Assembly: GCF_044324785.1 (NCBI RefSeq) | Contig: NZ_CP172127.1 | Length of the DNA stretch: 64,000 nucleotides | Source of the DNA: Escherichia coli | GTDB taxonomy: Bacteria > Pseudomonadota > Gammaproteobacteria > Enterobacterales > Enterobacteriaceae | Strand: one strand, 5' to 3' | Shown: one piece after another, positions 1-49,791 of the stretch | Layout: each line of letters begins with the position of its first letter | Numbering within the stretch: the first letter of the stretch is position 1 | The notes under the pieces: model-generated | What the model was told of the DNA's origin: nothing | The model's input: only the letters and a program-made list of their open reading frames with translations | Databases searched by the model: none | Position numbers and translations under genes: made by a program

Positions 1-177
1 ATCGGCATGCACAAAAAAATCTTTAATCGTATTTCTTGTGTCATTAATTGTTTGATGTTCAGATTGTTTTCCTCGCGGGCTGGCGCGCCTCAGAAAGTAA
101 AGCTTGTTGACAGGGGTAAACGTTCGGCAATAATTTTCTGCCGCATGCGGGTGTTGCATAAAACGTGCTACGTTCCT

Positions 178-483
178 TTATCGACAGGTCAGGTCACCGC
201 TCACCCGCCGACGAGAAAGCAACACTGACATGCTAAAGCAAAAAATAGATGAATAAGTTGAGTTGTGCATATGTAGCCTGACCGTCACAAAGTATATGGT
301 GTCTGTACCAGTAAGATGATGGCCGGACTCTTTAAAAACGAGCTGACCTGCACAATACAGGATGGACTTAGCAATGGCTGCTCCTGGCACAAAGCGGACA
401 GTGATCACCGTTCTTACGACTACTTTCTGACTTCCTTCGTGACTTGCCCTAAGCATGTTGTAGTGCGATACTTGTAATGACAT
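178..483 (-). CDS. Hypothetical protein divergent from relB (possibly ydfV-like)
   Basis: 101-aa ORF in track, divergent from relBE; size matches my recollection of K-12 YdfV but sequence identity not verifiable. Confidence 0.3.
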   Translation of the reverse strand: MSLQVSHYNMLRASHEGSQKVVVRTVITVRFVPGAAIAKSILYCAGQLVFKESGHHLTGTDTIYFVTVRLHMHNSTYSSIFCFSMSVLLSRRRVSGDLTCR

Positions 484-495
484 TTGTAATTACAA
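444..495 (+). promoter_or_regulatory. relBE promoter/operator: -35 TTGCCC (444-449), 17-nt spacer, -10 GATACT (467-472), overlapping TTGTAAT/TTGTAATTACAA operator repeats (472-495)
   Basis: Sigma70-like hexamers with 17-bp spacing directly upstream of relB RBS; 12-bp palindrome TTGTAATTACAA at 484-495. Confidence 0.5.
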
Positions 496-507
496 GAGGT
501 GTAAGAC

Positions 508-747
508 ATGGGTAGCATTAACCTGCGTATTGACGATGAACTTAAAGCGCGTTCTTACGCCGCGCTTGAAAAAATGGGTGTAACTCCTTCTGAAGCGCTT
601 CGTCTCATGCTCGAGTATATCGCTGACAATGAACGCTTGCCGTTCAAACAGACACTCCTGAGTGATGAAGATGCTGAACTTGTGGAGATAGTGAAAGAAC
701 GGCTTCGTAATCCTAAGCCAGTACGTGTGACGCTGGATGAACTCTGA
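508..747 (+). CDS. relB: RelB antitoxin
   Basis: 79-aa ORF MGSINLRIDDELKARSYA... recognised as RelB; stop overlaps relE start (ATGA). Confidence 0.95.
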   Translation: MGSINLRIDDELKARSYAALEKMGVTPSEALRLMLEYIADNERLPFKQTLLSDEDAELVEIVKERLRNPKPVRVTLDEL

Positions 748-1034
748 TGGCGTATTTTCTGGATTTTGACGAGCGGGCACTAAAGGAATGGCGAAAGCTG
801 GGCTCGACGGTACGTGAACAGTTGAAAAAGAAGCTGGTTGAAGTACTTGAGTCACCCCGGATTGAAGCAAACAAGCTCCGTGGTATGCCTGATTGTTACA
901 AGATTAAGCTCCGGTCTTCAGGCTATCGCCTTGTATACCAGGTTATAGACGAGAAAGTTGTCGTTTTCGTGATTTCTGTTGGGAAAAGAGAACGCTCGGA
1001 AGTATATAGCGAGGCGGTCAAACGCATTCTCTGA
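747..1034 (+). CDS. relE: RelE mRNA interferase toxin
   Basis: 95-aa ORF MAYFLDFDERALKEWRKL... recognised as RelE. Confidence 0.95.
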   Translation: MAYFLDFDERALKEWRKLGSTVREQLKKKLVEVLESPRIEANKLRGMPDCYKIKLRSSGYRLVYQVIDEKVVVFVISVGKRERSEVYSEAVKRIL

Positions 1035-1105
1035 ACCAAAGCATGACATCTCTGTTTCGCACCGAAGGTGACACTTCTGCTTTGCGTTGACAGGAGAAGC
1101 AGGCT

Positions 1106-1261
1106 ATGAAGCAGCAAAAGGCGATGTTAATCGCCCTGATCGTCATCTGTTTAACCGTCATAGTGACGGCACTGGTAACGAGGAAAGACCTCTGCGAGGT
1201 ACGAATCCGAACCGGCCAGACGGAGGTCGCTGTCTTCACAGCTTACGAACCTGAGGAGTAA
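1106..1261 (+). CDS. hokD: Hok-family membrane toxin (51 aa), third gene of relBE operon
   Basis: Hand-translated (below 60-aa track cutoff): MKQQKAMLIALIVICLTVIVTALVTRKDLCEVRIRTGQTEVAVFTAYEPEE; Hok family single TM + C-terminal periplasmic tail. Confidence 0.85.
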   Translation: MKQQKAMLIALIVICLTVIVTALVTRKDLCEVRIRTGQTEVAVFTAYEPEE

Positions 1262-1331
1262 GAGACCCGGCGGGGGAGAAATCCCTCGCCACCTCTGATG
1301 TGGCAGGCATCCTCAACGCACCCGCACTTAA

Positions 1332-1356
1332 CCCGCTTCGGCGGGTTTTTGTTTTT
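1332..1356 (+). terminator. Intrinsic terminator after hokD
   Basis: Hairpin CCCGC-TTCG-GCGGG followed by TTTTTGTTTTT. Confidence 0.5.
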
Positions 1357-1477
1357 ATTTTCAACGCGTTTGAAGTTCTGGACGGTGCCGGAATAGAATC
1401 AAAAATACTTAAGTAGCGCGCAGGGATAAGAGGGATGGTCCCTTAAAGGGGAGAGCTAATTATCCGGAAGGATTCTG

Positions 1478-1729
1478 ATGATGAACATCGAAGAACTGCG
1501 TAAAATTTTTTGTGAAGATGGCCTCTATGCTGTGTGCGTTGAAAATGGAAATCTTGTTAGTCATTACCGCATTATGTGTTTGCGAAAGAATGGGGCTGCG
1601 TTAATTAATTTTGTGGATGCTCGGGTCACGGACGGATTTATCTTGCGCGAAGGTGAGTTTGTCACTTCATTACAGGCATTGAAAGAGATCGGAATAAAAG
1701 CTGGCTTTTCTGCTTTTTCAGGAGAATAA
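1478..1729 (+). CDS. rem: Rem (prophage protein of unknown function)
   Basis: 83-aa ORF MMNIEELRKIFCEDGLYAV...; position between hokD and ydfU as in Qin. Confidence 0.8.
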   Translation: MMNIEELRKIFCEDGLYAVCVENGNLVSHYRIMCLRKNGAALINFVDARVTDGFILREGEFVTSLQALKEIGIKAGFSAFSGE

Positions 1730-1795
1730 ACTCATCTACAATCTTGCGCGGGGCTGAACTCCCGCTGAGTAACACCGTGCCACCGGAGAAAACCG

Positions 1796-2074
1796 ATGGC
1801 ACGCAACGCAAAATATTACAATTCTGATAATTCGCCCGTTCTTGCCTGCACGCACGGGCGGTATTCTCACGCATTCAAGTCTGAATGGTTCCAGCACCCT
1901 CCATGCACTGCAGAACAGGCCGAATGGCTGATTCATTCTTACCGCAGGCGCGGGTTCGAGGTTAAGAAAGCTCTCAGTCTCGACTATCGGCACTGGATAA
2001 TCTCTGTCAGGCTGCCTTATTCCGAACGCCCACCACGTGCGTCCCGCACTTTCCAGCAACGGATCTGGAGGTAA
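1796..2074 (+). CDS. Hypothetical small protein (unassigned)
   Basis: 92-aa ORF, non-repetitive composition; overlaps ydfU start by ~38 nt in another frame; could also reflect a 5' extension/frameshift of ydfU. Confidence 0.3.
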   Translation: MARNAKYYNSDNSPVLACTHGRYSHAFKSEWFQHPPCTAEQAEWLIHSYRRRGFEVKKALSLDYRHWIISVRLPYSERPPRASRTFQQRIWR

Positions 2075-3125
2075 CGTGCGGGTATTACTTAGACCTGTTC
2101 TGGTGCCTGAGCTTGGGCTGGTGGTCCTTAAGCCGGGCCGTGAATCCATACAGATATTTCATAATCCTCGAGTGCTGGTGGAACCGGAACCAAAAAGCAT
2201 GCGTAATCTGCCATCCGGAGTCGTTCCTGCCGTTCGCCAGCCGCTGGCGGAAGACAAAACATTGCTGCCGTTTTTTAGTAACGAACGGGTGATTCGTGCT
2301 GCTGGCGGCGTTGGCGCATTGTCCGACTGGCTATTACGTCATGTTACATCCTGCCAGTGGCCTAATGGCGATTACCATCACACTGAAACAGTCATTCACC
2401 GTTATGGTACCGGCGCAATGGTGTTGTGCTGGCACTGCGACAACCAACTGCGTGACCAGACATCGGAATCACTGGAGCTGCTTGCTCAACAAAATCTGAC
2501 AGCATGGGTGATTGACGTCATCCGTCACGCAATAAGCGGTACGCAGGAGCGGGAATTATCTTTGGCTGAATTATCCTGGTGGGCGGTCTGCAATCAGGTG
2601 GTGGATGCACTACCTGAGGCTGTATCGCGTCGTTCGCTGGGATTACCAGCGGAAAAAATCTGCTCGGTGTACCGCGAAAGCGACATCGTACCGGGAGAGC
2701 AGACCGCCACCAGCATATTGAAACAACGCACAAAAAATCTTGCACCGTTGCCTTACGCCCACCAGCAACAAAAATCACCACAGGAAAAGACGGTGGTAAG
2801 CATCACCGTTGATCCAGAGTCTCCGGAATCTTTCATGAAGCTGCCTAAACGTCGCCGCTGGGTTAAGGAGAAATACACACGTTGGGTTAAGACACAGCCG
2901 TGTGCTTGCTGCGGTATGCCAGCCGACGATCCGCATCATCTGATTGGTCACGGGCAGGGCGGAATGGGAACAAAAGCACATGATCTCTTTGTGTTGCCTT
3001 TGTGCAGAAAGCATCACAACGAGCTGCATACGGATACAGTGGCATTTGAAGATAAGTATGGCTCCCAACTGGAGCTGATATTTCGTTTTATCGATCGCGC
3101 GCTGGCAATTGGCGTACTGGCGTAA
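2037..3125 (+). CDS. ydfU: YdfU-family protein (DUF968) with C-terminal HNH-like zinc motif
   Basis: 362-aa ORF; C-terminus CACCGMPADDPHHLIGHG...CRKHHNELH resembles HNH/Zn-finger; exact start uncertain (in-frame GTG ~2073 possible). Confidence 0.75.
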   Translation: MRPALSSNGSGGNVRVLLRPVLVPELGLVVLKPGRESIQIFHNPRVLVEPEPKSMRNLPSGVVPAVRQPLAEDKTLLPFFSNERVIRAAGGVGALSDWLLRHVTSCQWPNGDYHHTETVIHRYGTGAMVLCWHCDNQLRDQTSESLELLAQQNLTAWVIDVIRHAISGTQERELSLAELSWWAVCNQVVDALPEAVSRRSLGLPAEKICSVYRESDIVPGEQTATSILKQRTKNLAPLPYAHQQQKSPQEKTVVSITVDPESPESFMKLPKRRRWVKEKYTRWVKTQPCACCGMPADDPHHLIGHGQGGMGTKAHDLFVLPLCRKHHNELHTDTVAFEDKYGSQLELIFRFIDRALAIGVLA

Positions 3126-3138
3126 GTGGAGAACGAGC

Positions 3139-3891
3139 ATGAACCTTGAAGCCTTACCAAAATATTACTCCCCAAAATCTCCAAAATTGAGCGATGACGC
3201 TCCAGCGACAGGCACCGGTTGTTTAACAATTACGGATGTAATGGCAGCGCAGGGGATGGTGCAGTCGAAAGCACCACTTGGGTTGGCCTTATTTCTGGCA
3301 AAAGTTGGTGTTCAGGACCCCCAGTTTGCGATTGAAGGCCTGCTAAATTACGCGATGGCACTGGATAACCCGACATTGAACAAATTGAGTGAAGAAATCC
3401 GGTTACAGATTATTCCTTACCTCGTGAGTTTTGCCTTTGCTGATTACTCCAGGTCTGCGGCAAGTAAGGCTCGCTGTGAGCATTGTTCAGGTACGGGATT
3501 TTATAATGTATTGCGCGAAGTGGTGAAACACTACAGACGCGGGGAATCTGTAATCAAGGAAGAATGGGTGAAGGAACTATGTCAGCATTGCCATGGTAAG
3601 GGCGAAGCCAGCACAGCGTGCAGAGGGTGTAAGGGTAAAGGGATTGTTCTGGATGAAAAAAGAACCCGGTTTCATGGCGTACCGGTATATAAGATTTGTG
3701 GGCGTTGTAATGGAAACCGGTTTAGTCGTTTACCGACCACGCTGGCACGACGTCATGTCCAGAAGCTGGTACCAGACCTGACCGATTATCAGTGGTATAA
3801 GGGGTATGCGGACGTCATTGGTAAACTGGTAACAAAGTGCTGGCAGGAAGAAGCATACGCGGAAGCGCAATTGAGGAAGGTGACAAGATAA
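3139..3891 (+). CDS. quuQ: Late-gene antiterminator Q
   Basis: ORF 3109-3891; start placed at MNLEAL (250 aa); multiple CxxC zinc-finger pairs (CEHCSGTG, CQHCHGKG, CRGCKGKG, CGRCNG) typical of Q-family antiterminators. Confidence 0.85.
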   Translation: MNLEALPKYYSPKSPKLSDDAPATGTGCLTITDVMAAQGMVQSKAPLGLALFLAKVGVQDPQFAIEGLLNYAMALDNPTLNKLSEEIRLQIIPYLVSFAFADYSRSAASKARCEHCSGTGFYNVLREVVKHYRRGESVIKEEWVKELCQHCHGKGEASTACRGCKGKGIVLDEKRTRFHGVPVYKICGRCNGNRFSRLPTTLARRHVQKLVPDLTDYQWYKGYADVIGKLVTKCWQEEAYAEAQLRKVTR

Positions 3892-3922
3892 ATGATTTTT
3901 GCTGAAGATGGCGACATGATGT

Positions 3923-3951
3923 TTGCATTTTTCAAAAAATATGGATAAAAT
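3923..3951 (+). promoter_or_regulatory. Candidate late promoter (PR'-like): -35 TTGCAT, 17-nt spacer, -10 TAAAAT
   Basis: Near-consensus sigma70 hexamers ~30 nt downstream of Q stop and ~45 nt upstream of an intrinsic terminator, the lambdoid PR'/qut/tR' arrangement. Confidence 0.45.
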
Positions 3952-3996
3952 TTTTTCAACGATGGGCTTTGTATACCCGACGTTAAGAAAAAGTAG

Positions 3997-4026
3997 AAAA
4001 CCCGCTGATGAGCGGGTTTTGTGCTT
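3997..4026 (+). terminator. Intrinsic terminator downstream of Q (tR'-like)
   Basis: Hairpin CCCGCT-GATGA-GCGGG followed by TTTTGTGCTTT. Confidence 0.6.
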
Positions 4027-4312
4027 TAAATGGGGCAATGGTAATGTTGAATCTCATCCCGGGACTCATGTCTGTTAACTTATTATTTAGCTGGTGACTT
4101 GGTTATTTGCCTGATGTTTAAAATGTTTTCTTCCAGTACAATGTCCCTAAACACAATGAGTCTGCTTATTATATTATTAGCAGAGCTATTACGGCCAAAG
4201 TACAGCATAAGCTTTTAAAGCCAATCAACCAGTCATCAAGACAGACGGGGTTATTCATAAAAACTCTCCATGTGTGATCCGATGGGGCCTGAAATTAAAG
4301 CTTTAATATAGC

Positions 4313-4525
4313 TCATGAAAGGTAAACATTGGCAGCTGAAGGGCCACGCAGACCATTTATCCGGCAAAATTCCACGCGTAATCCGGTGGTAATTTCTTCT
4401 GCATCGCGGAGATTGAGCGCTGAGACATGAAGCTGGACATCGATACGACCATCGGATGGGGTGATAAGACCCTTGCCGCTTTTGCCGTCAAAGGTTTTGA
4501 CAATTCCTGTCATTTTACGGGACAA
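4313..4525 (-). CDS. cspF: Cold-shock protein CspA family
   Basis: 70-aa [29 protein letters not shown]...; CSD fold motifs. Confidence 0.9.
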
Positions 4526-4825
4526 AAAAATTCCTTAATACTGATAACTTGGCGCACTATACACACGTTCCTGAAGAAAGCTATAGTTTTTTGATGGGGT
4601 TGAAGATGGCTGGATGTCTAAAATAAACATTGCTTCATATGTTCAACTATGCGTTAATGATTGCGTCGGTTTGAAGAACAGACGATATACGAAGTAGTTT
4701 ACTAAAGCAGTTCTCATTTCAGGTGTTATTCACTTATTCCTTCTTTGAGTCTCTCCAATTAAGTACGAAGTCGTTTCTGTTATGCAAACCATTTATGCCG
4801 AAAGGCTCAAGTTAAGGAATGTAGA

Positions 4826-5041
4826 ATGTCAAATAAAATGACTGGTTTAGTAAAATGGTTTAACGCTGATAAAGGTTTCGGCTTTATTTCTCCTGTTGAT
4901 GGTAGTAAAGATGTGTTTGTGCATTTTTCTGCGATTCAGAATGATAATTATCGAACCTTATTTGAAGGTCAAAAGGTTACCTTCTCTATAGAGAGTGGTG
5001 CTAAAGGTCCTGCAGCAGCAAATGTCATCATTACTGATTAA
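4826..5041 (+). CDS. cspB: Cold-shock protein CspA family
   Basis: 71-aa [26 protein letters not shown]...; RNP1/RNP2 motifs; long AT-rich 5' leader. Confidence 0.95.
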
Positions 5042-5322
5042 AATTCATCGCTCGTCTGTATACGATAACGAAGAAGGCTGATGCCTGAGTAGAGATACGG
5101 ACAGAGTAGTGAATATTGGATCTCTTTAATAAAAAGTAAGGAGGTCCAATACATGAAACAATGGCTAGCATATTTGGCAAAATCTTAATCAGGAAAAGTA
5201 TGCTAACCATTGTGGTGAAGTGCAGGTTTGCTGCATGAATAGTTTTACAGCAGAAGCTAACTGCTGGCATGGCAAAACAAAGTGCGTAAGTGGATGACTC
5301 CCACAAAAAGCACCACAATCTC

Positions 5323-5348
5323 AAACCCGCTCAGGCGGGTTTTTTATT
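5323..5348 (+). terminator. Intrinsic terminator
   Basis: Hairpin CCCGC-TCAG-GCGGG followed by TTTTTTATTAT. Confidence 0.55.
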
Positions 5349-5404
5349 ATCTGCTTTAAATATATTATTAAAATATAAAAAATACTTGTTACTAATAAAA
5401 TCAA

Positions 5405-5575
5405 TCAGGCTACAGCTTTAAGATTTGTCTGGAATACTTTGTTGCAATGAGGGCAGATCAAAAGGGCACCTTTTTGTACTCTTGAAAAACTGTGTTCTGA
5501 CTCTTGGGTGCAGTTTGGGCAGGAACATTTAACGAGATAATTACGGCGTGATTTTGAGTTTTTACGTTCTGACAT
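5405..5575 (-). CDS. Small zinc-ribbon protein (56 aa from internal Met; possibly ynfU-like)
   Basis: ORF 5405-5626; MSERKNSKSRRNYLVKCSCPNCTQESEHSFSRVQKGALLICPHCNKVF has two CxxC pairs; name from uncertain recollection. Confidence 0.45.
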   Translation of the reverse strand: MSERKNSKSRRNYLVKCSCPNCTQESEHSFSRVQKGALLICPHCNKVFQTNLKAVA

Positions 5576-5794
5576 AGGCTTTTCCTGTATAAATGGCCGT
5601 ATACAGTACACTAAATATGAAAACATTTCTCGTATTATTATTTTATATATGACTTTCTTTCAAAATAATTACCCACATTTTTAATGTGTATGTTTTTTTA
5701 GCGCCGTTGAGAACAACGTGTGCTGTCAAAACTACCCCGTAGACTCCGATCTTTTCAAACATATTGCACCATCCGTGTACATCGGGGTGAGGAT

Positions 5795-6010
5795 ATGAAA
5801 TCAATGGATAAGTTAACAACAGGTGTTGCCTATGGCACATCGGCGGGTAATGCTGGTTTCTGGGCATTGCAGTTACTCGATAAAGTAACTCCGTCACAGT
5901 GGGCTGCAATCGGTGTGCTGGGTAGCCTGGTTTTTGGCCTGCTGACGTATCTGACAAATCTTTATTTCAAGATTAAAGAAGACAGGCGTAAGGCTGCGAG
6001 AGGAGAGTAA
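5795..6010 (+). CDS. essQ: Pinholin, phage 21 S-type, dual-start motif
   Basis: [26 protein letters not shown]... 71 aa; Met1 and Met4 starts as in S21 holin/antiholin; two TM segments; SD GGGGTGAGG upstream. Confidence 0.85.
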
Positions 6011-6014
6011 TCCA

Positions 6015-6322
6015 ATGACTCAAGACTATGAACTGGTTGTGAAAGGAGTCCGTAATTTTGAGAATAAAGTTACGGTAACTGTAGCCTTACAGGACAAAGA
6101 ACGCTTTGACGGTGAAATTTTTGACCTGGATGTCGCCATGGACCGTGTTGAAGGAGCTGCGCTGGAGTTTTATGAGGCAGCAGCCAGAAGGAGCGTCCGG
6201 CAAGTCTTCCTGGAAGTAGCAGAAAAATTGTCAGAAAAAGTTGAGTCTTATCTGCAGCATCAGTACTCCTTTAAGATTGAAAATCCTGCCAATAAGCACG
6301 AGCGTCCTCATCATAAATATAT

Positions 6323-6326
<4 letters not shown>
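6015..6326 (+). CDS. ydfR: YdfR (DUF1327) protein inserted between holin and endolysin
   Basis: 103-aa ORF MTQDYELVVKGVRNFENKV... Confidence 0.85.
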
Positions 6327-7350
<1,024 letters not shown>

Positions 7351-7713
7351 GGTAATATTAAATCGGAACATTTACATCGCGGAATGTAAAATTTAAATAA
7401 AAAGGACTCTTCCATGAGCCAAAATTCCTGAAATCTTAAGGGTAAGATAAAAGGTCTTAATCAGAATGACACGTTATTATTAATAAATAAAGCTATTCTT
7501 TCATTGCTGTGTTTTTCTTTACAAAAGTAATCCTTGCTATGGGTGGTTAATCATGCGTTAATGGTGTTCTGGTTTGTTACAAATTTATCTGAAGCAGTCA
7601 TTGTTATAATTTTATTATTTGTACCTCTTGAGATTTCCTTGTTGGTTTTTCTCTCTGATATTTTTTTTCGGACCATTCTGCCCAAGGGCTAATTTCTTCA
7701 AAAGGTAATAATT

Positions 7714-7926
7714 ATGTCTAACAAAATGACTGGTTTAGTGAAATGGTTTAACCCTGAAAAAGGTTTTGGTTTCATCACGCCGAAAGATGGCAGCAAAGAT
7801 GTGTTTGTCCATTTCTCAGCAATTCAGAGCAACGATTTCAAAACATTAACTGAGAATCAGGAAGTTGAATTTGGTATTGAGAACGGACCTAAAGGTCCTG
7901 CCGCTGTTCATGTAGTGGCGCTTTGA
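7714..7926 (+). CDS. cspI: Cold-shock protein CspA family
   Basis: 70-aa [26 protein letters not shown]...; long 5' leader. Confidence 0.95.
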
Positions 7927-8014
7927 GGTAGACAATATTACAAACCATATTCACTTTAGATGCCCGTGTTGTCATGGTTCCCAGTATAGAACATCATCTT
8001 TTGATGTTTCTGAC

Positions 8015-8125
8015 ATGAATCCTTTCGGGGCAAAATGTATCTTTTGTAAATCAATGATGATTACATTTGATAATATTTCACAATACTTAAATGCCAGCCG
8101 TCTGTCGTTGGATTTAAAAAAGTGA
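8015..8125 (+). CDS. Small Cys-containing ORF (possibly ynfN-like)
   Basis: Hand-translated MNPFGAKCIFCKSMMITFDNISQYLNASRLSLDLKK; in-frame upstream CPCCHG lacks canonical start; intrinsic terminator immediately downstream. Confidence 0.3.
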   Translation: MNPFGAKCIFCKSMMITFDNISQYLNASRLSLDLKK

Positions 8126-8132
8126 AAATGAA

Positions 8133-8153
8133 GGCTCCTTCGGGAGCTTTTTT
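8133..8153 (+). terminator. Intrinsic terminator
   Basis: Hairpin GGCTCC-TTCG-GGAGCT followed by T6. Confidence 0.45.
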
Positions 8154-8155
8154 GC

Positions 8156-8428
8156 TTGGTATCTATTCGATGGATACTCACATACTACGGTAACATCATG
8201 AAAAAAATCATAGTTTTTTTTAACTCTGAACCTGCAGTGGTAGTGCCAGCGATGACTGGAGTTAACACCATCATGCGTGAATATCCAAATGGCGAAAAAA
8301 CACACCTTACTGTAATGGCCGCAGGGTTTCCATCTCTGACCGGAGATCATAAAGTCATTTATGTAGCCGCGGATCGACATGTTACTTCAGAAGAAATTCT
8401 GGAAGCAGCAATAAGGCTCTTGAGTTGA
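8156..8428 (+). CDS. Hypothetical protein (unassigned moron ORF)
   Basis: 90-aa ORF; likely start at MKKIIVFF (8195, 77 aa); no family recognised. Confidence 0.4.
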   Translation: MVSIRWILTYYGNIMKKIIVFFNSEPAVVVPAMTGVNTIMREYPNGEKTHLTVMAAGFPSLTGDHKVIYVAADRHVTSEEILEAAIRLLS

Positions 8429-8596
8429 TTTGATGCTATTGTATTGATAATTCAGGAAAATTTTCTTTGTCTGTTTGTGTAAAATTTAGACTATCGTATG
8501 TTGATTATTGCGATGTTTCATCTTATCTTTTACACGTTTGCACCATATAATCGACTTACTGTGTAACTGGAAAGTCATAACAGACTAAAAGAGGAA

Positions 8597-8773
8597 ATGA
8601 TGAATATTGAAAACTTAAAAACAAAAGCAGAAGCAGATATTTCTGAATATATAACAAAAAAAATTATTGAACTTAAGAAAAAGACCGGGAAAGAAGTTAC
8701 CAGTATTCAGTTTACCGCACGGGAAAAAATGACGGGTCTTGAAAGCTATGATGTCAAGATTAATTTAATCTGA
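8597..8773 (+). CDS. gnsB: GnsA/GnsB family protein
   Basis: Hand-translated 58 aa MMNIENLKTKAEADISEYITKKIIELKKKTGKEVTSIQFTAREKMTGLESYDVKINLI; SD GAGG upstream. Confidence 0.8.
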   Translation: MMNIENLKTKAEADISEYITKKIIELKKKTGKEVTSIQFTAREKMTGLESYDVKINLI

Positions 8774-8924
8774 TGTATTCAATAATAAAATTTATCCATA
8801 AACCTCGTTTTTACGGGGTTTTGTTATATTTGAATGGTTCCGAATATCTAAATCACAATTGTTGATGGTTTTTATTAAACCAATGCAGTCCGGCTCAGGA
8901 GTGAGAGAAGCCGGACGTTATGGT

Positions 8925-9335
8925 TTAGCGTGGTAAGATCTGTGTAGTTTTCTGGATGCTTTCAGTAAATAGTAATGAATTATCAAAGGTATAGTAATAT
9001 CTTTTTTGTTCGTGGATATTTGTAACCCACCGAAAAACTCCTGCTTTAGCAAGGTTTCTTCTGTATTCCTGAAATGTGATCTCTCTGGATTTCAGCTTAT
9101 TAGAGGTCGTTTCTATAAGATGCCTATCCTTTGAAAATTTGACAGACACAATGTTTTTTAGGCCCTTTAATAACACTGTATTATCATTTTTTAATACAAT
9201 ATGAACATTCTCTGTGGCTAAATAGTAAATGTAATGTGAGACATTGTGACGTTTTAGCTCAGAATAAAACCATTGATAGTTTAAATCGTTTCGAACTTTA
9301 TCAAATATTTGTTTAAAAATGACTACCTGATCCAT
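8925..9335 (-). CDS. ydfO: YdfO (DUF1398) protein
   Basis: ORF 8925-9350; start placed at [13 protein letters not shown] (136 aa). Confidence 0.8.
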
Positions 9336-9392
9336 AGATAAACCTTCCATATGATATGAGGGGGCGTAGTCTGCACGATTATCTAAATTGCT

Positions 9393-9626
9393 TCAATCTG
9401 GTCTGACCTGTTTTCTGAGCAATTCAGTAATGTCACTCTTTTCTTTGTTTGCTTCAGAAGAAACTCTTTTTTCTGAGCACAGTCTCCGGCGGCAGGCTTC
9501 AATGACCCAGGCTGAGAAATTCCCGGACCCTTTTTGCTCAAGAGCGATGTTAATTTGTTCAATCATTTGGTTAGGAAAGCGGATGTTGCGGGTTGTTGTT
9601 CTGCGGGTTCTGTTCTTCGTTGACAT
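9393..9626 (-). CDS. ynfO: Arc/MetJ-like ribbon-helix-helix DNA-binding protein
   Basis: 77 aa; RNIRFPNQMIEQINIALEQKG...FSAWVIEACRRRL resembles RHH fold; homologous to an ORF at the lambda right end as I recall it. Confidence 0.75.
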   Translation of the reverse strand: MSTKNRTRRTTTRNIRFPNQMIEQINIALEQKGSGNFSAWVIEACRRRLCSEKRVSSEANKEKSDITELLRKQVRPD

Positions 9627-9789
9627 GAGGTTGTCCCGTATTCAGTGTCGCTGATTTGTATTGTCTGAAGTTGTTTTTACGTTAAGTTGATGCAGATCAA
9701 TTAATACGATATCTGCGTCATAATTGATTATTTGACGTGGTTTGATGGCGTAGATGCACGTTGTGACATGCAGATGATAATTATTATCA

Positions 9790-10014
9790 TTTTGCGGGTC
9801 CTTTCCGGCGATCCGACAGGTTACGGGGCGGCGACCTCGCGGGTTTTCGCTATTTATGAAAATTTTCCGGTTTAAGGCATTTCCGTTCTTCTTCGTCGTA
9901 ACTTAATGTTTTTATTTAAAATACCCCCTGAAAAGAAAGGAAACAACAGGTGCTGAAAACGAGCTTTTGGGCCTCTGTCGTTTCCTTTCTCTGTTTTTGG
10001 CCGTGGAATGAACA
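9790..10014 (+). other. cos site (cosQ-cosN-cosB) of lambda type; cosN 12-nt cohesive end GGGCGGCGACCT at 9827-9838
   Basis: Sequence ...GATCCGACAGGTTACG|GGGCGGCGACCTCGCGGGTTTTCGCTATTTATGAAAATTTTCCGG matches my recollection of the lambda right-end/left-end junction; lies immediately upstream of Nu1. Confidence 0.8.
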
Positions 10015-10534
10015 ATGGAAGTCAACAAAAAGCAGCTGGCTGACATTTTCGGTGCGAGTATCCGTACCATTCAGAACTGGCAGGAACAGGGAATGCCCGT
10101 TCTGCGAGGCGGTGGCAAGGGTAATGAGGTGCTTTATGACTCTGCCGCCGTTATAAGATGGTATGCCGAAAGGGATGCTGAAATTGAGAACGAAAAGCTG
10201 CGCCGGGAAGTTGAAGAACTGCGGCAGGCCAGCGAGACAGATCTCCAGCCAGGGACTATTGAGTACGAACGCCATCGACTTACGCGTGCGCAGGCCGACG
10301 CACAGGAGCTGAAAAATGCCAGAGACTCCGCTGAAGTGGTGGAAACCGCATTCTGTACTTTCGTGCTGTCGCGGATCGCAGGTGAAATTGCCAGTATTCT
10401 CGACGGGATCCCCCTGTCGGTGCAGCGGCGTTTTCCGGAACTGGAAAACCGACATGTTGATTTCCTGAAACGGGATATCATCAAAGCCATGAACAAAGCA
10501 GCCGCGCTGGATGAACTGATACCGGGGTTGCTGA

Positions 10535-10560
<26 letters not shown>
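10015..10560 (+). CDS. nu1: Terminase small subunit (lambda Nu1-like)
   Basis: 181 aa MEVNKKQLADIFGASIRTIQNWQEQGMPVLRGGGKGNEVLYD...; winged-HTH N-terminus. Confidence 0.95.
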
Positions 10561-14241
<3,681 letters not shown>

Positions 14242-32405: not shown

Positions 32406-32980
32406 TGGCATTCAGAATGAGTGAACAACCACGGACCATAAAAATTTATAATCTGCTGGCCGGAACTAATGAATTTATTGGTGAAGGTGACGCATATATT
32501 CCGCCTCATACAGGTCTGCCAGCAAACAGTACCGATATTGCACCACCAGATATTCCTGCTGGCTTTGTGGCTGTTTTCAACAGTGATAAGGCATCGTGGC
32601 ATCTCGTTGAAGACCATCGGGGTAAAACGGTTTATGACGTAGCGTCAGGGGACGCGTTATTTATTTCTGAACTCGGTCCGTTACCGGAAAATGTTACCTG
32701 GTTATCGCCGGAAGGGGAGTTTCAGAAGTGGAACGGCACAGCCTGGGTGAAAGATGCAGAAGCAGAAAAACTGTTCCGGATCCGAGAGGCGGAAGAAACA
32801 AAAAACAGCCTGATGCAGGTAGCCAGTGAGCATATTGCGCCACTTCAGGATGCTGTAGATCTGGAAATCGCAACGGAGGAAGAAACCTCATTGCTGGAAG
32901 CCTGGAAAAAGTATCGGGTGTTGCTGAACCGTGTTGATACGTCAACTGCACAGGATATTGAATGGCCAGCACTGCCGTAG
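32405..32980 (+). CDS. tfa: Tail fiber assembly protein Tfa
   Basis: 191 aa [24 protein letters not shown]...; ATG overlaps stf stop (TAATG). Confidence 0.9.
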
Positions 32981-34218: not shown

Positions 34219-35003
34219 GAAGATATTCCTTAAAATATTATTGAGTTTCATTGCGATATTGTATGTCTGATTCAGGATATGTTGACTTATACATCGGTTT
34301 TGTCTGGGTTATTGGATATGCCAATCCCTAATTTTATTAGGGCATGACTAAAAATGCTGAATATGATAAGGAGAGAAGTGATTATCAGTATGCTGTTCAT
34401 ATAGCCTCGAATTAGTAATGTGTTATATATGATATAGTTGACAATTTTTATCTTGGGTGTTCTTAAAGTTCGTAGATAAACATTGTCGTTTCAGGTATAC
34501 AGGAATGCTAACAGGTGGCAGCAAAAATCAGGCGGTTTATGGCGCAAGCTGAAGCGGCAACTGCAAACTATCTTATGCAGAGACTCTACACGGATTGGGT
34601 TTAAAAGTATACATAGATAACAGTTTTTATCTGAAAAAGAAAAATATCAAGGTGATATAGCCTATATGCCTTTGATGCGGAGGAATGAATGTGATGGGAG
34701 TGATGTATCTGAATAGTTGAAAAACCGCAGACACGCCTTATGCAAGAACGTGCTGCGGTTGGCTGGTAAATTTTTCGATAGTGTGAGTATTGAATGATTT
34801 CCAGCCGTTCTTGATTTTACGCATAAATCCATGAAAAAACTACTTATCTGTTGGGGAGTTTTTTTGGGGCATATATGGGACAGAAATAGGCCCCAGATAG
34901 ACACTGAGATCGAACTTAGGATGCTTTTTAAAAAATGCAACTATCTGAAAAAACCTAGAAAACGCCAAGGAAACCACAGGATGGGAAAAAACACCTGTGA
35001 ATT

Positions 35004-36287
35004 ATGGATTTCCAGTTATATTCGCTCGGCGCAGCGTTAGTGTTTCATGAAATATTTTTTCCTGAATCATCAACGGCAATGGCGTTAATTCTGGCAATGG
35101 GAACCTACGGTGCAGGTTATGTGGCACGTATTGTCGGAGCATTTATTTTCGGCAAAATGGGCGACAGAATCGGGCGTAAAAAAGTGCTCTTTATTACCAT
35201 CACCATGATGGGGATCTGTACCACCTTAATTGGTGTGCTGCCGACCTATGCACAAATTGGTGTGTTTGCGCCAATTTTGCTGGTGACGCTGCGTATTATT
35301 CAGGGGCTGGGGGCAGGCGCGGAAATTTCCGGTGCCGGCACGATGCTGGCGGAATATGCACCAAAAGGTAAGCGCGGAATTATCTCCTCATTTGTTGCTA
35401 TGGGGACTAACTGCGGAACCTTGAGCGCAACGGCAATCTGGGCCTTTATGTTCTTCATTCTCAGTAAAGAGGAACTGCTGGCGTGGGGATGGCGTATACC
35501 GTTCCTGGCGAGCGTTGTCGTGATGGTCTTTGCTATCTGGTTGCGTATGAATCTGAAAGAAAGCCCGGTCTTTGAGAAGGTTAACGACAGCAACCAACCG
35601 ACAGCAAAACCTGCACCTGCTGGTAGCATGTTCCAGAGCAAATCCTTCTGGCTGGCAACAGGGCTGCGTTTTGGTCAGGCGGGTAACTCAGGTTTAATTC
35701 AGACTTTCCTTGCAGGCTATTTAGTGCAGACGTTATTGTTTAACAAAGCAATTCCAACAGATGCATTGATGATCAGTTCGATTCTCGGCTTTATGACCAT
35801 TCCGTTCCTTGGTTGGTTATCCGATAAAATTGGTCGCCGGATCCCGTATATTATTATGAATACCTCCGCGATTGTGCTGGCATGGCCAATGCTTTCTATC
35901 ATCGTAGATAAAAGCTATGCCCCGAGCACCATTATGGTTGCACTGATTGTGATTCATAACTGTGCGGTGCTGGGATTATTTGCTCTGGAAAACATTACCA
36001 TGGCAGAAATGTTCGGCTGTAAAAACCGCTTTACCCGGATGGCTATTTCTAAAGAAATTGGTGGTCTTATCGCTTCCGGTTTTGGTCCTATCCTGGCGGG
36101 TATTTTCTGCACCATGACGGAATCCTGGTATCCGATCGCCATTATGATCATGGCATATTCAGTGATTGGTTTAATCTCTGCGCTGAAAATGCCAGAGGTG
36201 AAAGACCGTGATTTAAGTGCGCTGGAAGACGCTGCGGAAGATCAACCGCGTGTTGTAAGAGCTGCGCAACCTTCCAGAAGTCTGTAA
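35004..36287 (+). CDS. ydfJ: MFS transporter (metabolite:H+ symporter family), apparently lacking the normal N-terminus
   Basis: 427-aa ORF MDFQLYSLGAALVFHEIFFPESS...; aligns from the conserved WYDF motif onward of MHS transporters; in-frame stop immediately upstream. Confidence 0.85.
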   Translation: MDFQLYSLGAALVFHEIFFPESSTAMALILAMGTYGAGYVARIVGAFIFGKMGDRIGRKKVLFITITMMGICTTLIGVLPTYAQIGVFAPILLVTLRIIQGLGAGAEISGAGTMLAEYAPKGKRGIISSFVAMGTNCGTLSATAIWAFMFFILSKEELLAWGWRIPFLASVVVMVFAIWLRMNLKESPVFEKVNDSNQPTAKPAPAGSMFQSKSFWLATGLRFGQAGNSGLIQTFLAGYLVQTLLFNKAIPTDALMISSILGFMTIPFLGWLSDKIGRRIPYIIMNTSAIVLAWPMLSIIVDKSYAPSTIMVALIVIHNCAVLGLFALENITMAEMFGCKNRFTRMAISKEIGGLIASGFGPILAGIFCTMTESWYPIAIMIMAYSVIGLISALKMPEVKDRDLSALEDAAEDQPRVVRAAQPSRSL

Positions 36288-47800: not shown

Positions 47801-47910
47801 TTCAAGTTTTGGTCAATGCGATGCAAGGTTAGCTAAAGAGTGACACTTTATCCTTGTTTACCCCTTATACTTTTCGCTGATAACCCAGATACACAGGATA
47901 ACAACCACCA

Positions 47911-48576
47911 ATGTTAGATTTGTTTAAAGCAATTGGCCTGGGGCTGGTGGTGTTACTACCGTTAGCTAACCCATTAACAACTGTCGCGTTATTTCTTGGC
48001 CTGGCAGGCAACATGAACAGTGCCGAACGTAATCGTCAGTCGTTGATGGCCTCGGTGTACGTCTTTGCCATCATGATGGTGGCGTATTACGCCGGGCAAC
48101 TGGTGATGGATACATTTGGCATTTCGATTCCCGGTCTGCGAATTGCAGGCGGCTTAATCGTCGCGTTTATCGGTTTTCGGATGCTCTTTCCGCAACAGAA
48201 AGCAATTGATTCACCGGAAGCGAAAAGCAAGTCGGAAGAGCTGGAAGATGAACCCAGTGCCAATATTGCTTTTGTACCACTGGCAATGCCTAGTACCGCC
48301 GGACCGGGAACCATTGCGATGATTATTAGCTCGGCGTCCACTGTGCGTCAGAGTTCAACCTTCGCTGATTGGGTACTGATGGCTGCGCCGCCGCTGATCT
48401 TTTTCCTGGTGGCGGTTATTTTGTGGGGAAGTCTACGCAGCTCTGGCGCAATTATGCGGCTGGTGGGCAAGGGGGGAATTGAAGCGATCTCCCGCCTGAT
48501 GGGATTCCTGCTGGTATGTATGGGCGTGCAGTTTATTATTAACGGCATCCTGGAAATCATTAAAACGTACCATTAA
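47911..48576 (+). CDS. marC: MarC-family inner membrane protein
   Basis: 221 aa [22 protein letters not shown]... Confidence 0.9.
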
Positions 48577-48597
48577 AAAAGGCCCGAATGGGCCTTT
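48575..48597. terminator. Bidirectional intrinsic terminator between convergent marC and ydeA
   Basis: A-run, hairpin GGCCC-GAAT-GGGCC, T-run. Confidence 0.5.
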
Positions 48598-48600
48598 CAA

Positions 48601-49791
48601 CTATTGCGTCTGTTCTTCGAGTGTCACTGGCCAGCGGCGAAAAATGATGATTGACCATATTAACGCGGCAAAAGCAGGCACCGCGCCCACATAACCAATC
48701 ATCGACATTGACCAGTGCAGACTGACCTGATTACCTACCAACGCGCCAGCGCCGATTCCAATATTAAATATCCCCGAGAATAGCGCCATCGCGACATCGG
48801 TGGCATCTGGTGCCAGCGCCAGCACTTTAACCTGCATACCAAGCCCGATGATCATCATCGCGATCCCCCAGAAAATACTTAGCACCCCGAGGTGTATTTC
48901 ACTGTTCGCCGCAGGTAGCAGCAGTGCGAGGCACACCAGCAACAGCGCAATCGCCGTACTCACCAACGCAGACGCATACTGATTACCCAGTTTCCCGAAA
49001 ATCACGCTGCCAATAATGCCCGCACCACCGAGTAATAACAGTAATGCCGTGGCAAAGTTGGCGCTGAATCCCGCAATGTTTTGCACAAAAGGCTCGATAT
49101 AGCTGTATGCCGTGTAATGGGCGGTGACAACCACCACAGTTAACAAATAAATGCTCATTAATGCCGGGCGGCGGAACAATAGCGGGAGGCTTTTCAATGA
49201 ACCGGAATGCTCACTGGGCAGCAAGGGAAGTAACTTAATCAGGCACAAAAGGGTAATAAACGCCCCGATACCAATCGCGAAGAAGGTCATTCGCCAGCCA
49301 AAATACTGCCCCACAATGCGCCCGAGAGGTAAACCTAATACCATTGCCAGTGCTGTACCGGTGGCAATTAAACTCAACGCCTGCGCTCGCTTCCCGGCCG
49401 GAGCCATACGGATCGCCAGAGACGCCGTAATCGACCAGAAAATCGCATGTGCAAAAGCCACACCAATGCGACTGATCACCAGAACGGTAAAGCTCCACGA
49501 CAAAAACGACAGTACGTGGCTGGCAATAAACACCACAAACAGGCAGATCAGTAATTTGCGTCGTTCAACCTGGCTGGTCATTAACATAAAAGGCAATGAC
49601 ATTAGCGCCACTACCCATGCATAAATCGTCAACATGATGCCGACCTGAGCGGTTTGCATGTGAAAACTTTGCGCAATGTCAGAGAGCAGGCCAACAGGGA
49701 CAAATTCGGTGGTGTTGAAGATGAAGGCGGCGACTGCCAGCGTAACGACCCGTAGCCACGCCACTTTGCGGGAAACAGTGTTTGTTGTCAT
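48601..49791 (-). CDS. ydeA: MFS sugar efflux transporter
   Basis: 396 aa, 12-TM profile. Confidence 0.9.

What the first reader, a model, noticed from the sequence alone, without database searches (positions are those of the whole stretch)
9790..10014. Lambda-type cos site with the canonical 12-nt cohesive end
The sequence GATCCGACAGGTTACG followed by GGGCGGCGACCTCGCGGGTTTTCGCTATTTATGAAAATTTTCC reproduces what I recall as the lambda cos junction (cosQ/cosN/cosB), placed exactly upstream of Nu1. An intact cosN plus intact Nu1/A argues the prophage genome is packageable and could also package cos-containing plasmids.
Basis: partly seen in the sequence, partly recalled or inferred. Interest (0 to 1): 0.45.

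Follow-up and report, generated by a model that had tools for sequence, protein, structure and literature searches.

The report
Ordinary lambda-type cos site, Qin-type prophage
This is a genuine and apparently intact lambda-type DNA-packaging (cos) site, with lambda's cohesive-end sequence and a near-identical terminase next to it, in a full-length relative of the E. coli Qin prophage; the element is well known and very common, so the finding is correct but ordinary.

Summary
Window 9790-10014 aligns without a gap across the joined right and left ends of phage lambda. The 12-base cohesive end GGGCGGCGACCT lies at 9826-9837, cosQ (GGGTCCT) at 9796-9802, and I2 is identical to lambda's. R3, I1, inverted R2 and R1 are all present with lambda spacing, and the Nu1 start codon is at 10015.

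Nu1 differs from lambda's at 3 of 181 residues, all outside the DNA-binding helix and wing. gpA differs at 2 of 641 residues. Fifteen listed phage records begin exactly at the base equivalent to window 9826.

The host element is a full-length Qin-type lambdoid prophage. K-12's cryptic Qin is this same element minus about 21 kb. An isolated phage, PhiR42_1, is collinear with it, has an identical Nu1, and its cos differs by one base.

That base, window 9945 in R2 (G to A), is the only unusual feature. It was absent from 5,426 complete E. coli genomes and from IMG/VR. It lies outside the published TerS contact core, so it is probably harmless.

"Packageable" is only partly supported. Every late gene in the window is intact, but the integrase, immunity and replication arm lies outside the window. 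Nothing here is novel: lambda-type cos sites occur in about 85% of complete E. coli genomes.

The parts
9796..9802 (+). cosQ (GGGTCCT), the 7-bp site needed to terminate packaging. It corresponds to lambda bp 48473-48479.
   Evidence: Identical to lambda. It occupies the same position (29 to 23 bp before the genome end) as the cosQ feature annotated in phage 434 record OL657226. 109 of 117 IMG/VR lambda-type cos loci have the same 7-mer.
9821..9842 (.). cosN, the roughly 22-bp nicking site; the boundaries are approximate. The top strand would be nicked between 9825 and 9826 and the bottom strand between 9837 and 9838.
   Evidence: All 22 bp are identical to lambda 48498-48502 plus 1-17. The figure of about 22 bp is from PMC4856287. 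The nick positions are inferred from the physical ends of lambda and 434.
9826..9837 (+). The 12-nt cohesive-end sequence GGGCGGCGACCT, which would be the left 5' overhang of the virion DNA.
   Evidence: Equals the first 12 bases of NC_001416 and the 'cos site' feature of phage DE3. Fifteen listed phage records start at exactly this base, query position 37. It is the only exact copy in the window.
9843..9875 (+). I2, the AT-rich, intrinsically bent segment between cosN and cosB (lambda bp 18-50). Its sequence is essential, and it sets the cosN-cosB spacing.
   Evidence: Identical to lambda with no insertions or deletions. Coordinates and function are from PMC4856287. 26 of 32 columns are invariant in 117 natural loci.
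9875..9890 (+). cosB R3, the critical TerS (Nu1) binding site: AGGCATTTCCGTTCTT. Lambda has G at bp 54 where the window has A, at window 9879.
   Evidence: The extent bp 50-65 is from PMC9026076 and the 434 annotation. Contact bases 55-63, and bp 56, 58 and 59, are identical to lambda. The A54 allele is shared with isolated phage PhiR42_1 and with 19 of 117 IMG/VR loci.
9899..9911 (-). cosB I1, the IHF binding site (AAACATTAAGTTA on the minus strand).
   Evidence: Identical to the I1 feature annotated in phage 434 (bp 74-86) and to lambda's sequence there.
9933..9948 (-). cosB R2, the TerS binding site in inverted orientation. The top strand reads AAGAAAGGAAACAACA. It carries the private substitution G to A at window 9945 (lambda bp 120).
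   Evidence: Position is from the 434 annotation, bp 108-123. The substitution is absent from all 8 phage cos sequences aligned. It is the single mismatch to the closest genome, 07-4299, and no complete E. coli genome has a 100% match.
9976..9991 (+). cosB R1, the accessory TerS binding site (TGTCGTTTCCTTTCTC).
   Evidence: Identical to lambda and 434. 15 of 16 columns are invariant in 117 loci.
10015..10560 (+). Nu1 (annotated nohA in E. coli genomes), the terminase small subunit, 181 aa.
   Evidence: Differs from lambda Nu1 at three residues: K48R, A75T and L132I. Residues 1-45, which include the recognition helix (17-24) and the wing (31-39), are identical. It is 100% identical to PhiR42_1 Nu1. 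It matches the solved lambda TerS structures 1J9I and 6HN7.
10535..12460 (+). A, the terminase large subunit (nuclease and ATPase), 641 aa, with a GTG start as in lambda.
   Evidence: Differs from lambda gpA at two residues, I459V and T466I. The reading frame is intact, whereas the closest genome has W262* at the codon equivalent to window 11318-11320.

Best explanation
Window 9796-9991 is the cos site of a full-length Qin-type lambdoid prophage, with lambda's packaging specificity.

Inferred mechanism, taken from lambda. Nu1 dimers bind R3 and the inverted R2 across an IHF-induced bend at I1, with R1 in an accessory role. This anchors gpA at a fixed distance, set by I2. gpA then nicks cosN between 9825 and 9826 on the top strand and between 9837 and 9838 on the bottom strand, which produces the 12-nt 5' overhang GGGCGGCGACCT. 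Terminase stays bound to the cosB end, docks on the portal, and packages DNA rightwards, from Nu1 towards J. Packaging ends at the next cos in the concatemer, where cosQ (9796-9802) is needed for the bottom-strand nick.

What is shown here: the presence, order, orientation, spacing and near-identity of every sub-site, and an essentially lambda-identical, intact terminase.

What is inferred: that cleavage really occurs at this site, and that the single private base change in R2 (window 9945) is tolerated.

What cannot be decided from the window: whether this particular prophage can excise, replicate and make particles.
For: The window aligns without a gap across lambda's right-end/left-end junction. 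cosQ, cosN and I2 are identical to lambda.

The sub-sites match the curated annotation of phage 434: R3 at bp 50-65, I1 at 74-86, R2 at 108-123, R1 at 151-166, and cosQ at 29 to 23 bp before the genome end. The Nu1 start is at +190, as in 434.

The R motif occurs only three times in 64 kb, all in cosB and oriented + - +.

Fifteen listed phage records begin at the base equivalent to window 9826.

Nu1 has 3 substitutions, none in residues 1-45. gpA has 2 substitutions. The Nu1 N-terminus matches PDB entries 1J9I and 6HN7.

The bases published as important for TerS recognition (R3 bp 55-63, especially 56, 58 and 59; TerS residues 20 and 24) are all lambda-type (PMC9026076, PMC4669245).

Phage PhiR42_1, whose record gives E. 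coli ECOR13 as host, is collinear with window 1-25000 (99% coverage, 98.0% identity). It has an identical Nu1 and a cos that differs by one base.

The window's cos equals the majority base of 117 IMG/VR lambda-type cos loci at all but 4 columns.

All genes compared with PhiR42_1 lack stop codons, and all but the mosaic stf align full-length.
Against: No experiment supports any of this; functionality rests on sequence identity.

R3 and R2 each differ from lambda by one base. The R2 change at 9945 was found in no other sequence examined. It lies where the Nu1 wing may touch the minor groove, which is placed 5' of the major-groove contacts (PMC9026076), so a modest defect cannot be excluded.

Members of this prophage family are often defective. 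K-12 Qin lacks about 21 kb. The closest complete genome has a nonsense codon in gpA and pseudogenes in the early region.

The left arm of this copy is outside the window.
Confidence: 0.88

Rival explanations
1. The cos sequence is intact but sits in a prophage that is defective in this strain, as Qin is in K-12. Its own phage would never use it. At most it would be a passive target for terminase made by other lambda-specificity phages in the same cell.
For: The window starts at flxA/ydfV, so integrase, excisionase, repressor and replication genes cannot be seen. K-12 Qin keeps the same cos but has lost the region from A to stf. The closest complete genome (07-4299, 99.5% identical) has gpA W262*, three pseudogenes and an IS fragment in the early region. 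Lambda-type cos sites occur at a median of 2 places per E. coli genome; by my own reasoning, many of these are likely to be relics.
Against: Within the window, all 43 genes compared with the isolated phage PhiR42_1 lack stop codons, and all but the mosaic stf align full-length. These include Q, the lysis genes, the terminase and the head and tail genes. The gpA nonsense codon of the neighbouring genome is not present here.
Confidence: 0.4
2. The cos site is functionally weakened by its substitutions, R3 G54A plus the private R2 G120A. Nu1 would assemble poorly at cosB, so packaging would be inefficient or strictly dependent on IHF.
For: Both changes fall inside the annotated 16-bp R elements. 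The R2 allele was found nowhere else: not in 5,426 complete genomes, not in the phage records aligned, and not in IMG/VR. A single R3 change at bp 58 is known to make lambda IHF-dependent (PMC4669245).
Against: Neither change lies in bp 55-63, the segment that contacts the TerS DNA-binding domain, or at bp 56, 58 or 59 (PMC9026076). R3 A54 is present in PhiR42_1 and in 19 of 117 natural loci. On the R strand, the R2 change converts CGTTTCC to TGTTTCC. This is the base that 434, 2H10 and an Stx1 phage carry at the equivalent R3 position, bp 53. The same transition mutation was least harmful when placed in R2 or R1 rather than R3 (PMC9026076).
Confidence: 0.1
3. The cos belongs to a phage-inducible chromosomal island (PICI-type cos) or to a different packaging specificity (21-like or N15-like), and only resembles lambda around cosN.
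For: PICI elements and phages 21 and N15 share nearly identical cosQ and cosN sequences with lambda (PMC9026076, PMC4669245), so matching the 12-mer alone would not tell them apart.
Against: All three R repeats and I1 are present, which PICI and N15 cos sites lack (PMC9026076). The downstream gene is a full 181-aa Nu1 that is 98% identical to lambda's, not an rpp gene. The discriminating positions, R3 bp 56 and 59 and TerS residues 20 and 24, equal lambda's (PMC4669245).
Confidence: 0.01

Closest known systems
Phage lambda cos (NC_001416, bp 48473-48502 joined to bp 1-166) with Nu1 and A
   Same: cosQ, cosN, the 12-nt cohesive end, I2, the I1 core and R1 are identical. The order R3-I1-R2(inverted)-R1 is the same. 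The terminase is 98-99.7% identical, with the same GTG start for A and an identical Nu1 DNA-binding domain.
   Different: There are 13 differences within the 238-bp segment that corresponds to the cloned lambda fragment 48446-182, which carries cosQ, cosN and cosB. They include R3 bp 54 (G to A), R2 bp 120 (G to A), and a 1-bp deletion between R2 and R1 that puts the Nu1 ATG at +190 instead of +191. On the right-end side the cos sits after the Qin-type accessory genes cspI, ynfN, gnsB, ydfO and ynfO, rather than after lambda's bor region.
cos of isolated phage PhiR42_1 (PV340562), a full-length Qin-type temperate phage from the ECOR-derived panel
   Same: PhiR42_1 is collinear with window 1-25000 at 98.0% identity. 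Nu1 is 100% identical. The cos is identical, including R3 A54, except for one base.
   Different: PhiR42_1 has G at the R2 position where the window has A (9945). The tape-measure protein (89%), G (86%) and the side tail fibre are mosaic variants.
cos and nohA of the K-12 cryptic prophage Qin (NC_000913, 12-mer at 1636545-1636556)
   Same: Same chromosomal locus, between ydfJ and rspB. Same flanking genes. 99.7% identity over window 1-10543. The cos differs at 4 of 228 positions.
   Different: K-12 Qin has lost about 21 kb, equivalent to window 10543-31711, from the end of Nu1 and the start of A through to stf. It therefore keeps cos but has no large terminase subunit and no head or tail genes.
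Phage 434 cos (OL657226, the record with curated sub-site annotation)
   Same: Same sub-site coordinates and the same +190 start for Nu1. The 36 bp on the right-end side are identical, including C at the base equivalent to lambda 48486.
   Different: Seven differences in 231 aligned columns. R3 in 434 reads AGGTGTTTCC, where the window reads AGGCATTTCC.

Membership tests
lambda-type cos with complex cosB and lambda packaging specificity | A 12-nt 5' cohesive-end sequence at cosN that is identical or nearly identical to GGGCGGCGACCT | tested here: met
   Exact match at 9826-9837 to the first 12 bases of NC_001416 and to the DE3 'cos site' feature.
lambda-type cos with complex cosB and lambda packaging specificity | The 7-bp cosQ at a fixed distance upstream of cosN | tested here: met
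   GGGTCCT at 9796-9802, which is 29 to 23 bp before the top-strand nick, as in lambda and in the annotated 434 record.
lambda-type cos with complex cosB and lambda packaging specificity | The I2 segment (bp 18-50) conserved in sequence, with exact cosN-to-R3 spacing | tested here: met
   Lambda bp 1-53 are identical in the window, with no insertions or deletions. The requirement is from PMC4856287.
lambda-type cos with complex cosB and lambda packaging specificity | Three R repeats in the order R3, I1 (IHF site), inverted R2, R1 | tested here: met
   The motif scan gives exactly three hits, at 9878(+), 9934(-) and 9979(+). The I1 core is identical to the 434 annotation.
lambda-type cos with complex cosB and lambda packaging specificity | R3 contact bases (bp 55-63; specificity bp 56 and 59; bp 58) of the lambda type | tested here: met
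   TTTCCGTTC is identical to lambda. The criteria are from PMC9026076 and PMC4669245. The only R3 change is at bp 54.
lambda-type cos with complex cosB and lambda packaging specificity | A TerS gene immediately downstream, with lambda's recognition helix (residues 17-24) and wing (residues 31-39) | tested here: met
   Residues 1-45 are identical to lambda Nu1. The protein matches 1J9I and 6HN7.
lambda-type cos with complex cosB and lambda packaging specificity | An intact TerL (gpA) to nick cosN | tested here: met
   A 641-aa ORF with two substitutions relative to lambda and no stop codon.
lambda-type cos with complex cosB and lambda packaging specificity | Actual terminase cleavage giving 12-nt cohesive ends in virion DNA | not testable with these tools
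   Indirect evidence only: 15 listed phage records start at the equivalent base.
Qin-type lambdoid prophage (PhiR42_1-like) | Integrated between rspB and ydfJ, with the gene order relBE, hokD, rem, ydfU, Q, cspF/cspB, lysis genes, cspI, gnsB, ydfO, ynfO, cos, nohA | tested here: met
   The right junction is at about window 35012, next to ydfJ. The left junction is outside the window.
PICI-type cos (Rpp-dependent) | cosQ and cosN with no R repeats and no IHF site, followed by an rpp gene instead of terS | tested here: not met
   The R repeats and I1 are present, and the downstream gene is a full-length Nu1. The family description is from PMC9026076.

The most novel reading that the evidence does not exclude
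The chromosomal cos may act as more than the prophage's own packaging origin. Any lambda-specificity terminase in the cell, whether from this prophage, a co-resident one or a superinfecting phage, could cut it in situ. That would create a double-strand break that fuels recombination with incoming lambdoid phages, as reported for DLP12 (PMC3945230). It could also start one-directional packaging of the roughly 25 kb from cos to attR plus about 23 kb of host DNA beyond ydfJ. In this reading, the private R2 substitution would be an early step in adjusting or decaying that activity.
Probability: 0.2. Interest if true: 0.3.

Novelty: already known. Interest (0 to 1): 0.08.

Why it matters
It matters little beyond annotation. 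The result places a packaging origin at single-base resolution, with nicks predicted at 9825/9826 and 9837/9838. It shows that this strain carries the full-length form of the element that survives in K-12 as cryptic Qin, with an intact lambda-specificity terminase. In practical terms, if the prophage can be induced, it should package lambda-cos cosmids, and it could serve as a helper for cos-bearing satellites. Its virion ends can be predicted in advance. The one base that is unique to this copy (9945 in R2) offers a small natural test of how much sequence R2 needs.

Tried and rejected
- **NCBIfam.** It returned no family for Nu1 or gpA. This means no model matched, not that the proteins are unusual; direct comparison with lambda's proteins settles their identity.
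- **PDB.** No entry matched gpA at sequence level.
- **Promoter and terminator scan around cos.** At background level and uninformative.
- **tRNA genes.** None in the window, so no tRNA-linked att site.
- **Rfam.** Nothing at cos.
- **Second cos downstream.** I looked for one in the same window that could allow in-situ packaging to terminate. There is no other exact 12-mer, and the four 2-mismatch hits are at chance level.
- **Source paper for the PhiR phage panel** (Brenes and Laub 2025). It is not in the held library. A citing paper (PMC13190303) confirms only that a panel of temperate lambda relatives was used in plaquing assays, and it does not name PhiR42_1.
- **Earlier work on lambda terminase cutting chromosomal cos sites at nohA.** Literature searches did not find it. 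I recall such a paper (Kotani et al., Nucleic Acids Research, 1992) but could not verify it, so I do not rely on it.
- **Exact source genome.** Not found. The best complete genome is 99.5% identical over 25 kb.
- **Chance resemblance and PICI, 21 or N15 specificity.** Considered and rejected at sequence level.

Full report
**Observation.** GATCCGACAGGTTACG lies at 9810-9825 and GGGCGGCGACCTCGCGGGTTTTCGCTATTTATGAAAATTTTCC at 9826-9868. I joined the last 300 bases of reference lambda (NC_001416) to its first 300 bases and aligned that junction to window 9526-10125. The alignment has no gap at the junction, so lambda bp 1 corresponds to window 9826. Within cos proper, lambda bp 48487-48502 and bp 1-53 are identical to the window. 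The 12-base cohesive end equals lambda's and also equals the "cos site" feature annotated in phage DE3. Chance is excluded. The E-values are 4e-81 to the lambda left end and 8e-113 to phage PhiR42_1, and the exact 12-mer occurs once in the window.

**Anatomy.** I took the sub-site coordinates from published work and from a curated record, not from memory.

- PMC9026076 gives R3 as bp 50-65, with TerS contacts at bp 55-63 and packaging-relevant mutations at bp 56, 58 and 59.
- The phage 434 record OL657226 annotates cosN at 1-12, R3 at 50-65, I1 at 74-86, R2 at 108-123, R1 at 151-166, and cosQ at 29 to 23 bp before the genome end.

Transferred to the window, this gives:

| Sub-site | Window coordinates |
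|---|---|
| cosQ | 9796-9802 |
| cosN (approximate) | 9821-9842 |
| I2 | 9843-9875 |
| R3 | 9875-9890 |
| I1 | 9899-9911 |
| R2 (inverted) | 9933-9948 |
| R1 | 9976-9991 |
| Nu1 ATG | 10015 (+190, as in 434; lambda is +191) |

These positions rest. An independent motif scan for CGTTTCCKTTCT, allowing one mismatch, finds three hits in the whole 64 kb against 0.56 expected by chance. They fall exactly at R3(+), R2(-) and R1(+).

**The physical end.** In the phage collection, 15 listed records begin at exactly query position 37, which is window 9826. They include lambda J02459 and NC_001416, 434, 2G7b and O276. This is independent support for the cleavage point.

**Differences from lambda, and whether they matter.**

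- Within the segment equivalent to the cloned fragment 48446-182 there are 13 differences.
- None falls in cosQ, cosN, I2, the I1 core or R1.
- R3 has G54A (window 9879) and R2 has G120A (window 9945).
- Both lie outside the bp 55-63 contact core and away from bp 56, 58 and 59 (PMC9026076, PMC4669245).
- R3 A54 is a natural allele. It is present in isolated phage PhiR42_1 and in 19 of 117 IMG/VR lambda-type cos loci.

Across those 117 loci (77 distinct sequences), the window carries the majority base at every column except four: 9879, 9945, 9969 and 10000. The R2 columns of that panel were fixed by the way I selected the loci. In other words, the window is closer to the natural consensus than lambda itself is.

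**The private R2 change.**

- It is the single mismatch to the closest genome, 07-4299, over the 225 bp. No genome among 5,426 complete E. coli genomes has a 100% match.
- It is absent from the eight phage cos sequences I aligned.
- Read on the R strand, it changes CGTTTCC to TGTTTCC. That is the base phages 434, 2H10 and an Stx1 phage carry at the equivalent R3 position, bp 53.
- The same transition mutation placed in each R site was least harmful in R2 and R1 (PMC9026076).

I therefore expect the change to be neutral or mild. A modest effect through the Nu1 wing's minor-groove contact cannot be excluded.

**Terminase.**

- Nu1 (10015-10560, 181 aa) differs from lambda Nu1 at K48R, A75T and L132I.
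- Residues 1-45, which hold the recognition helix and the wing, are identical.
- The protein matches the solved lambda TerS structures 1J9I and 6HN7.
- gpA (10535-12460, 641 aa, GTG start as in lambda) differs at I459V and T466I.

By published criteria the specificity is therefore lambda's, not that of 21, N15 or a PICI.

**Context.**

- The element is a Qin-type lambdoid prophage between rspB and ydfJ.
- K-12's cryptic Qin matches window 1-10543 at 99.7% and then resumes at window 31711. K-12 Qin is therefore this element minus about 21 kb, from A to stf, and it keeps the cos site.
- Isolated phage PhiR42_1 (host field E. coli ECOR13) is collinear with window 1-25000, with 99% coverage at 98.0% identity.
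- All 43 of its genes that fall inside the window, from ydfV to ynaE, have counterparts without stop codons. All are full-length except the mosaic stf, whose 944-aa ORF is intact.
- The PhiR42_1 junction places the prophage's right end at about window 35012. The unique phage genome is about 47.9 kb, close to lambda's own 48.5 kb.
- The window begins at flxA/ydfV, so roughly 13 kb holding int, xis, the immunity genes and the replication genes is out of view.
- The closest complete genome (99.5% identical) has gpA W262* and several early-region pseudogenes. The window has TGG at that codon.

**Mechanism.** The mechanism is inferred from lambda (PMC4669245, PMC4856287, PMC9026076). [quoted passage not shown] Terminase stays on the cosB end and packages DNA towards Nu1, A and on to J. 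Termination at the next cos requires cosQ. The architecture and the sequence identity are shown here. Cleavage itself was not tested.

The identification is correct and the coordinates are precise. "Packageable" is plausible but rests on parts of the prophage that are not in the window. Packaging of lambda-cos plasmids is a fair inference from the identical Nu1 DNA-binding domain.

**Novelty.** There is none. Lambda-type cos segments occur in 4,590 of 5,426 complete E. coli genomes, at a median of two places per genome. This very locus is present in K-12. A functional role for cos and nu1 from a defective prophage has already been shown for DLP12 (PMC3945230). The only unusual feature is one private base in R2.

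Noticed in passing
window 10543-31711: K-12's cryptic prophage Qin matches window 1-10543 (99.7%) and resumes at window 31711. K-12 Qin is therefore a roughly 21-kb deletion derivative of this full-length element, missing everything from the Nu1/A junction to stf.
   Followed up: yes
window 11318-11320: The closest complete genome (E. coli 07-4299, NZ_CP027462) has TGA (W262*) in the terminase large subunit, where the window has TGG. The window copy is the intact one.
   Followed up: yes
window 35002-35012; L004 9065-9075: A candidate att core, TTATGGATTTC, is shared between the rspB-int junction of a related genome and the prophage's right end. It overlaps the ydfJ start codon at 35004. It rests only on a short exact match (E = 0.085) and on the end of homology with PhiR42_1.
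   Followed up: partly
L013 (PV340562, PhiR42_1) 3-1027 versus 47888-48668: The GenBank record of PhiR42_1 repeats about 780 bp at both ends, and it is linearised in prophage order rather than at cos. The unique genome is about 47.9 kb, not 48.7 kb.
   Followed up: partly
IMG/VR loci L015 onward, at the columns equivalent to window 9831-9837: 16 of 117 loci with a lambda-type R2 carry a different cohesive end: GGGCGGAAGGCG (12 loci), GGGCGGCAGGCG (3) and GGGCGTCAGGCG (1). In 15 of the 16 the changes are confined to bases 7-12, which fits the published statement that the right half of the overhang varies (PMC4669245).
   Followed up: no
window 9732-9875: A 47-aa ORF runs across cosN. Overlapping ORFs are annotated as 'hypothetical protein' in PhiR42_1 and in phage Kati. 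It is probably a spurious gene call over the cos site.
   Followed up: no
window 4665-5057, 7568-7953 and 32748-32946: Rfam matches above the gathering score: the cspA thermoregulator over the leaders and coding regions of cspB and cspI, and the IS009 RNA family inside the tail-fibre assembly gene tfa.
   Followed up: no
window 508-1258: The relB/relE and hokD toxin-antitoxin modules lie in the prophage upstream of Q. Their proteins are 100% identical to those of PhiR42_1.
   Followed up: no
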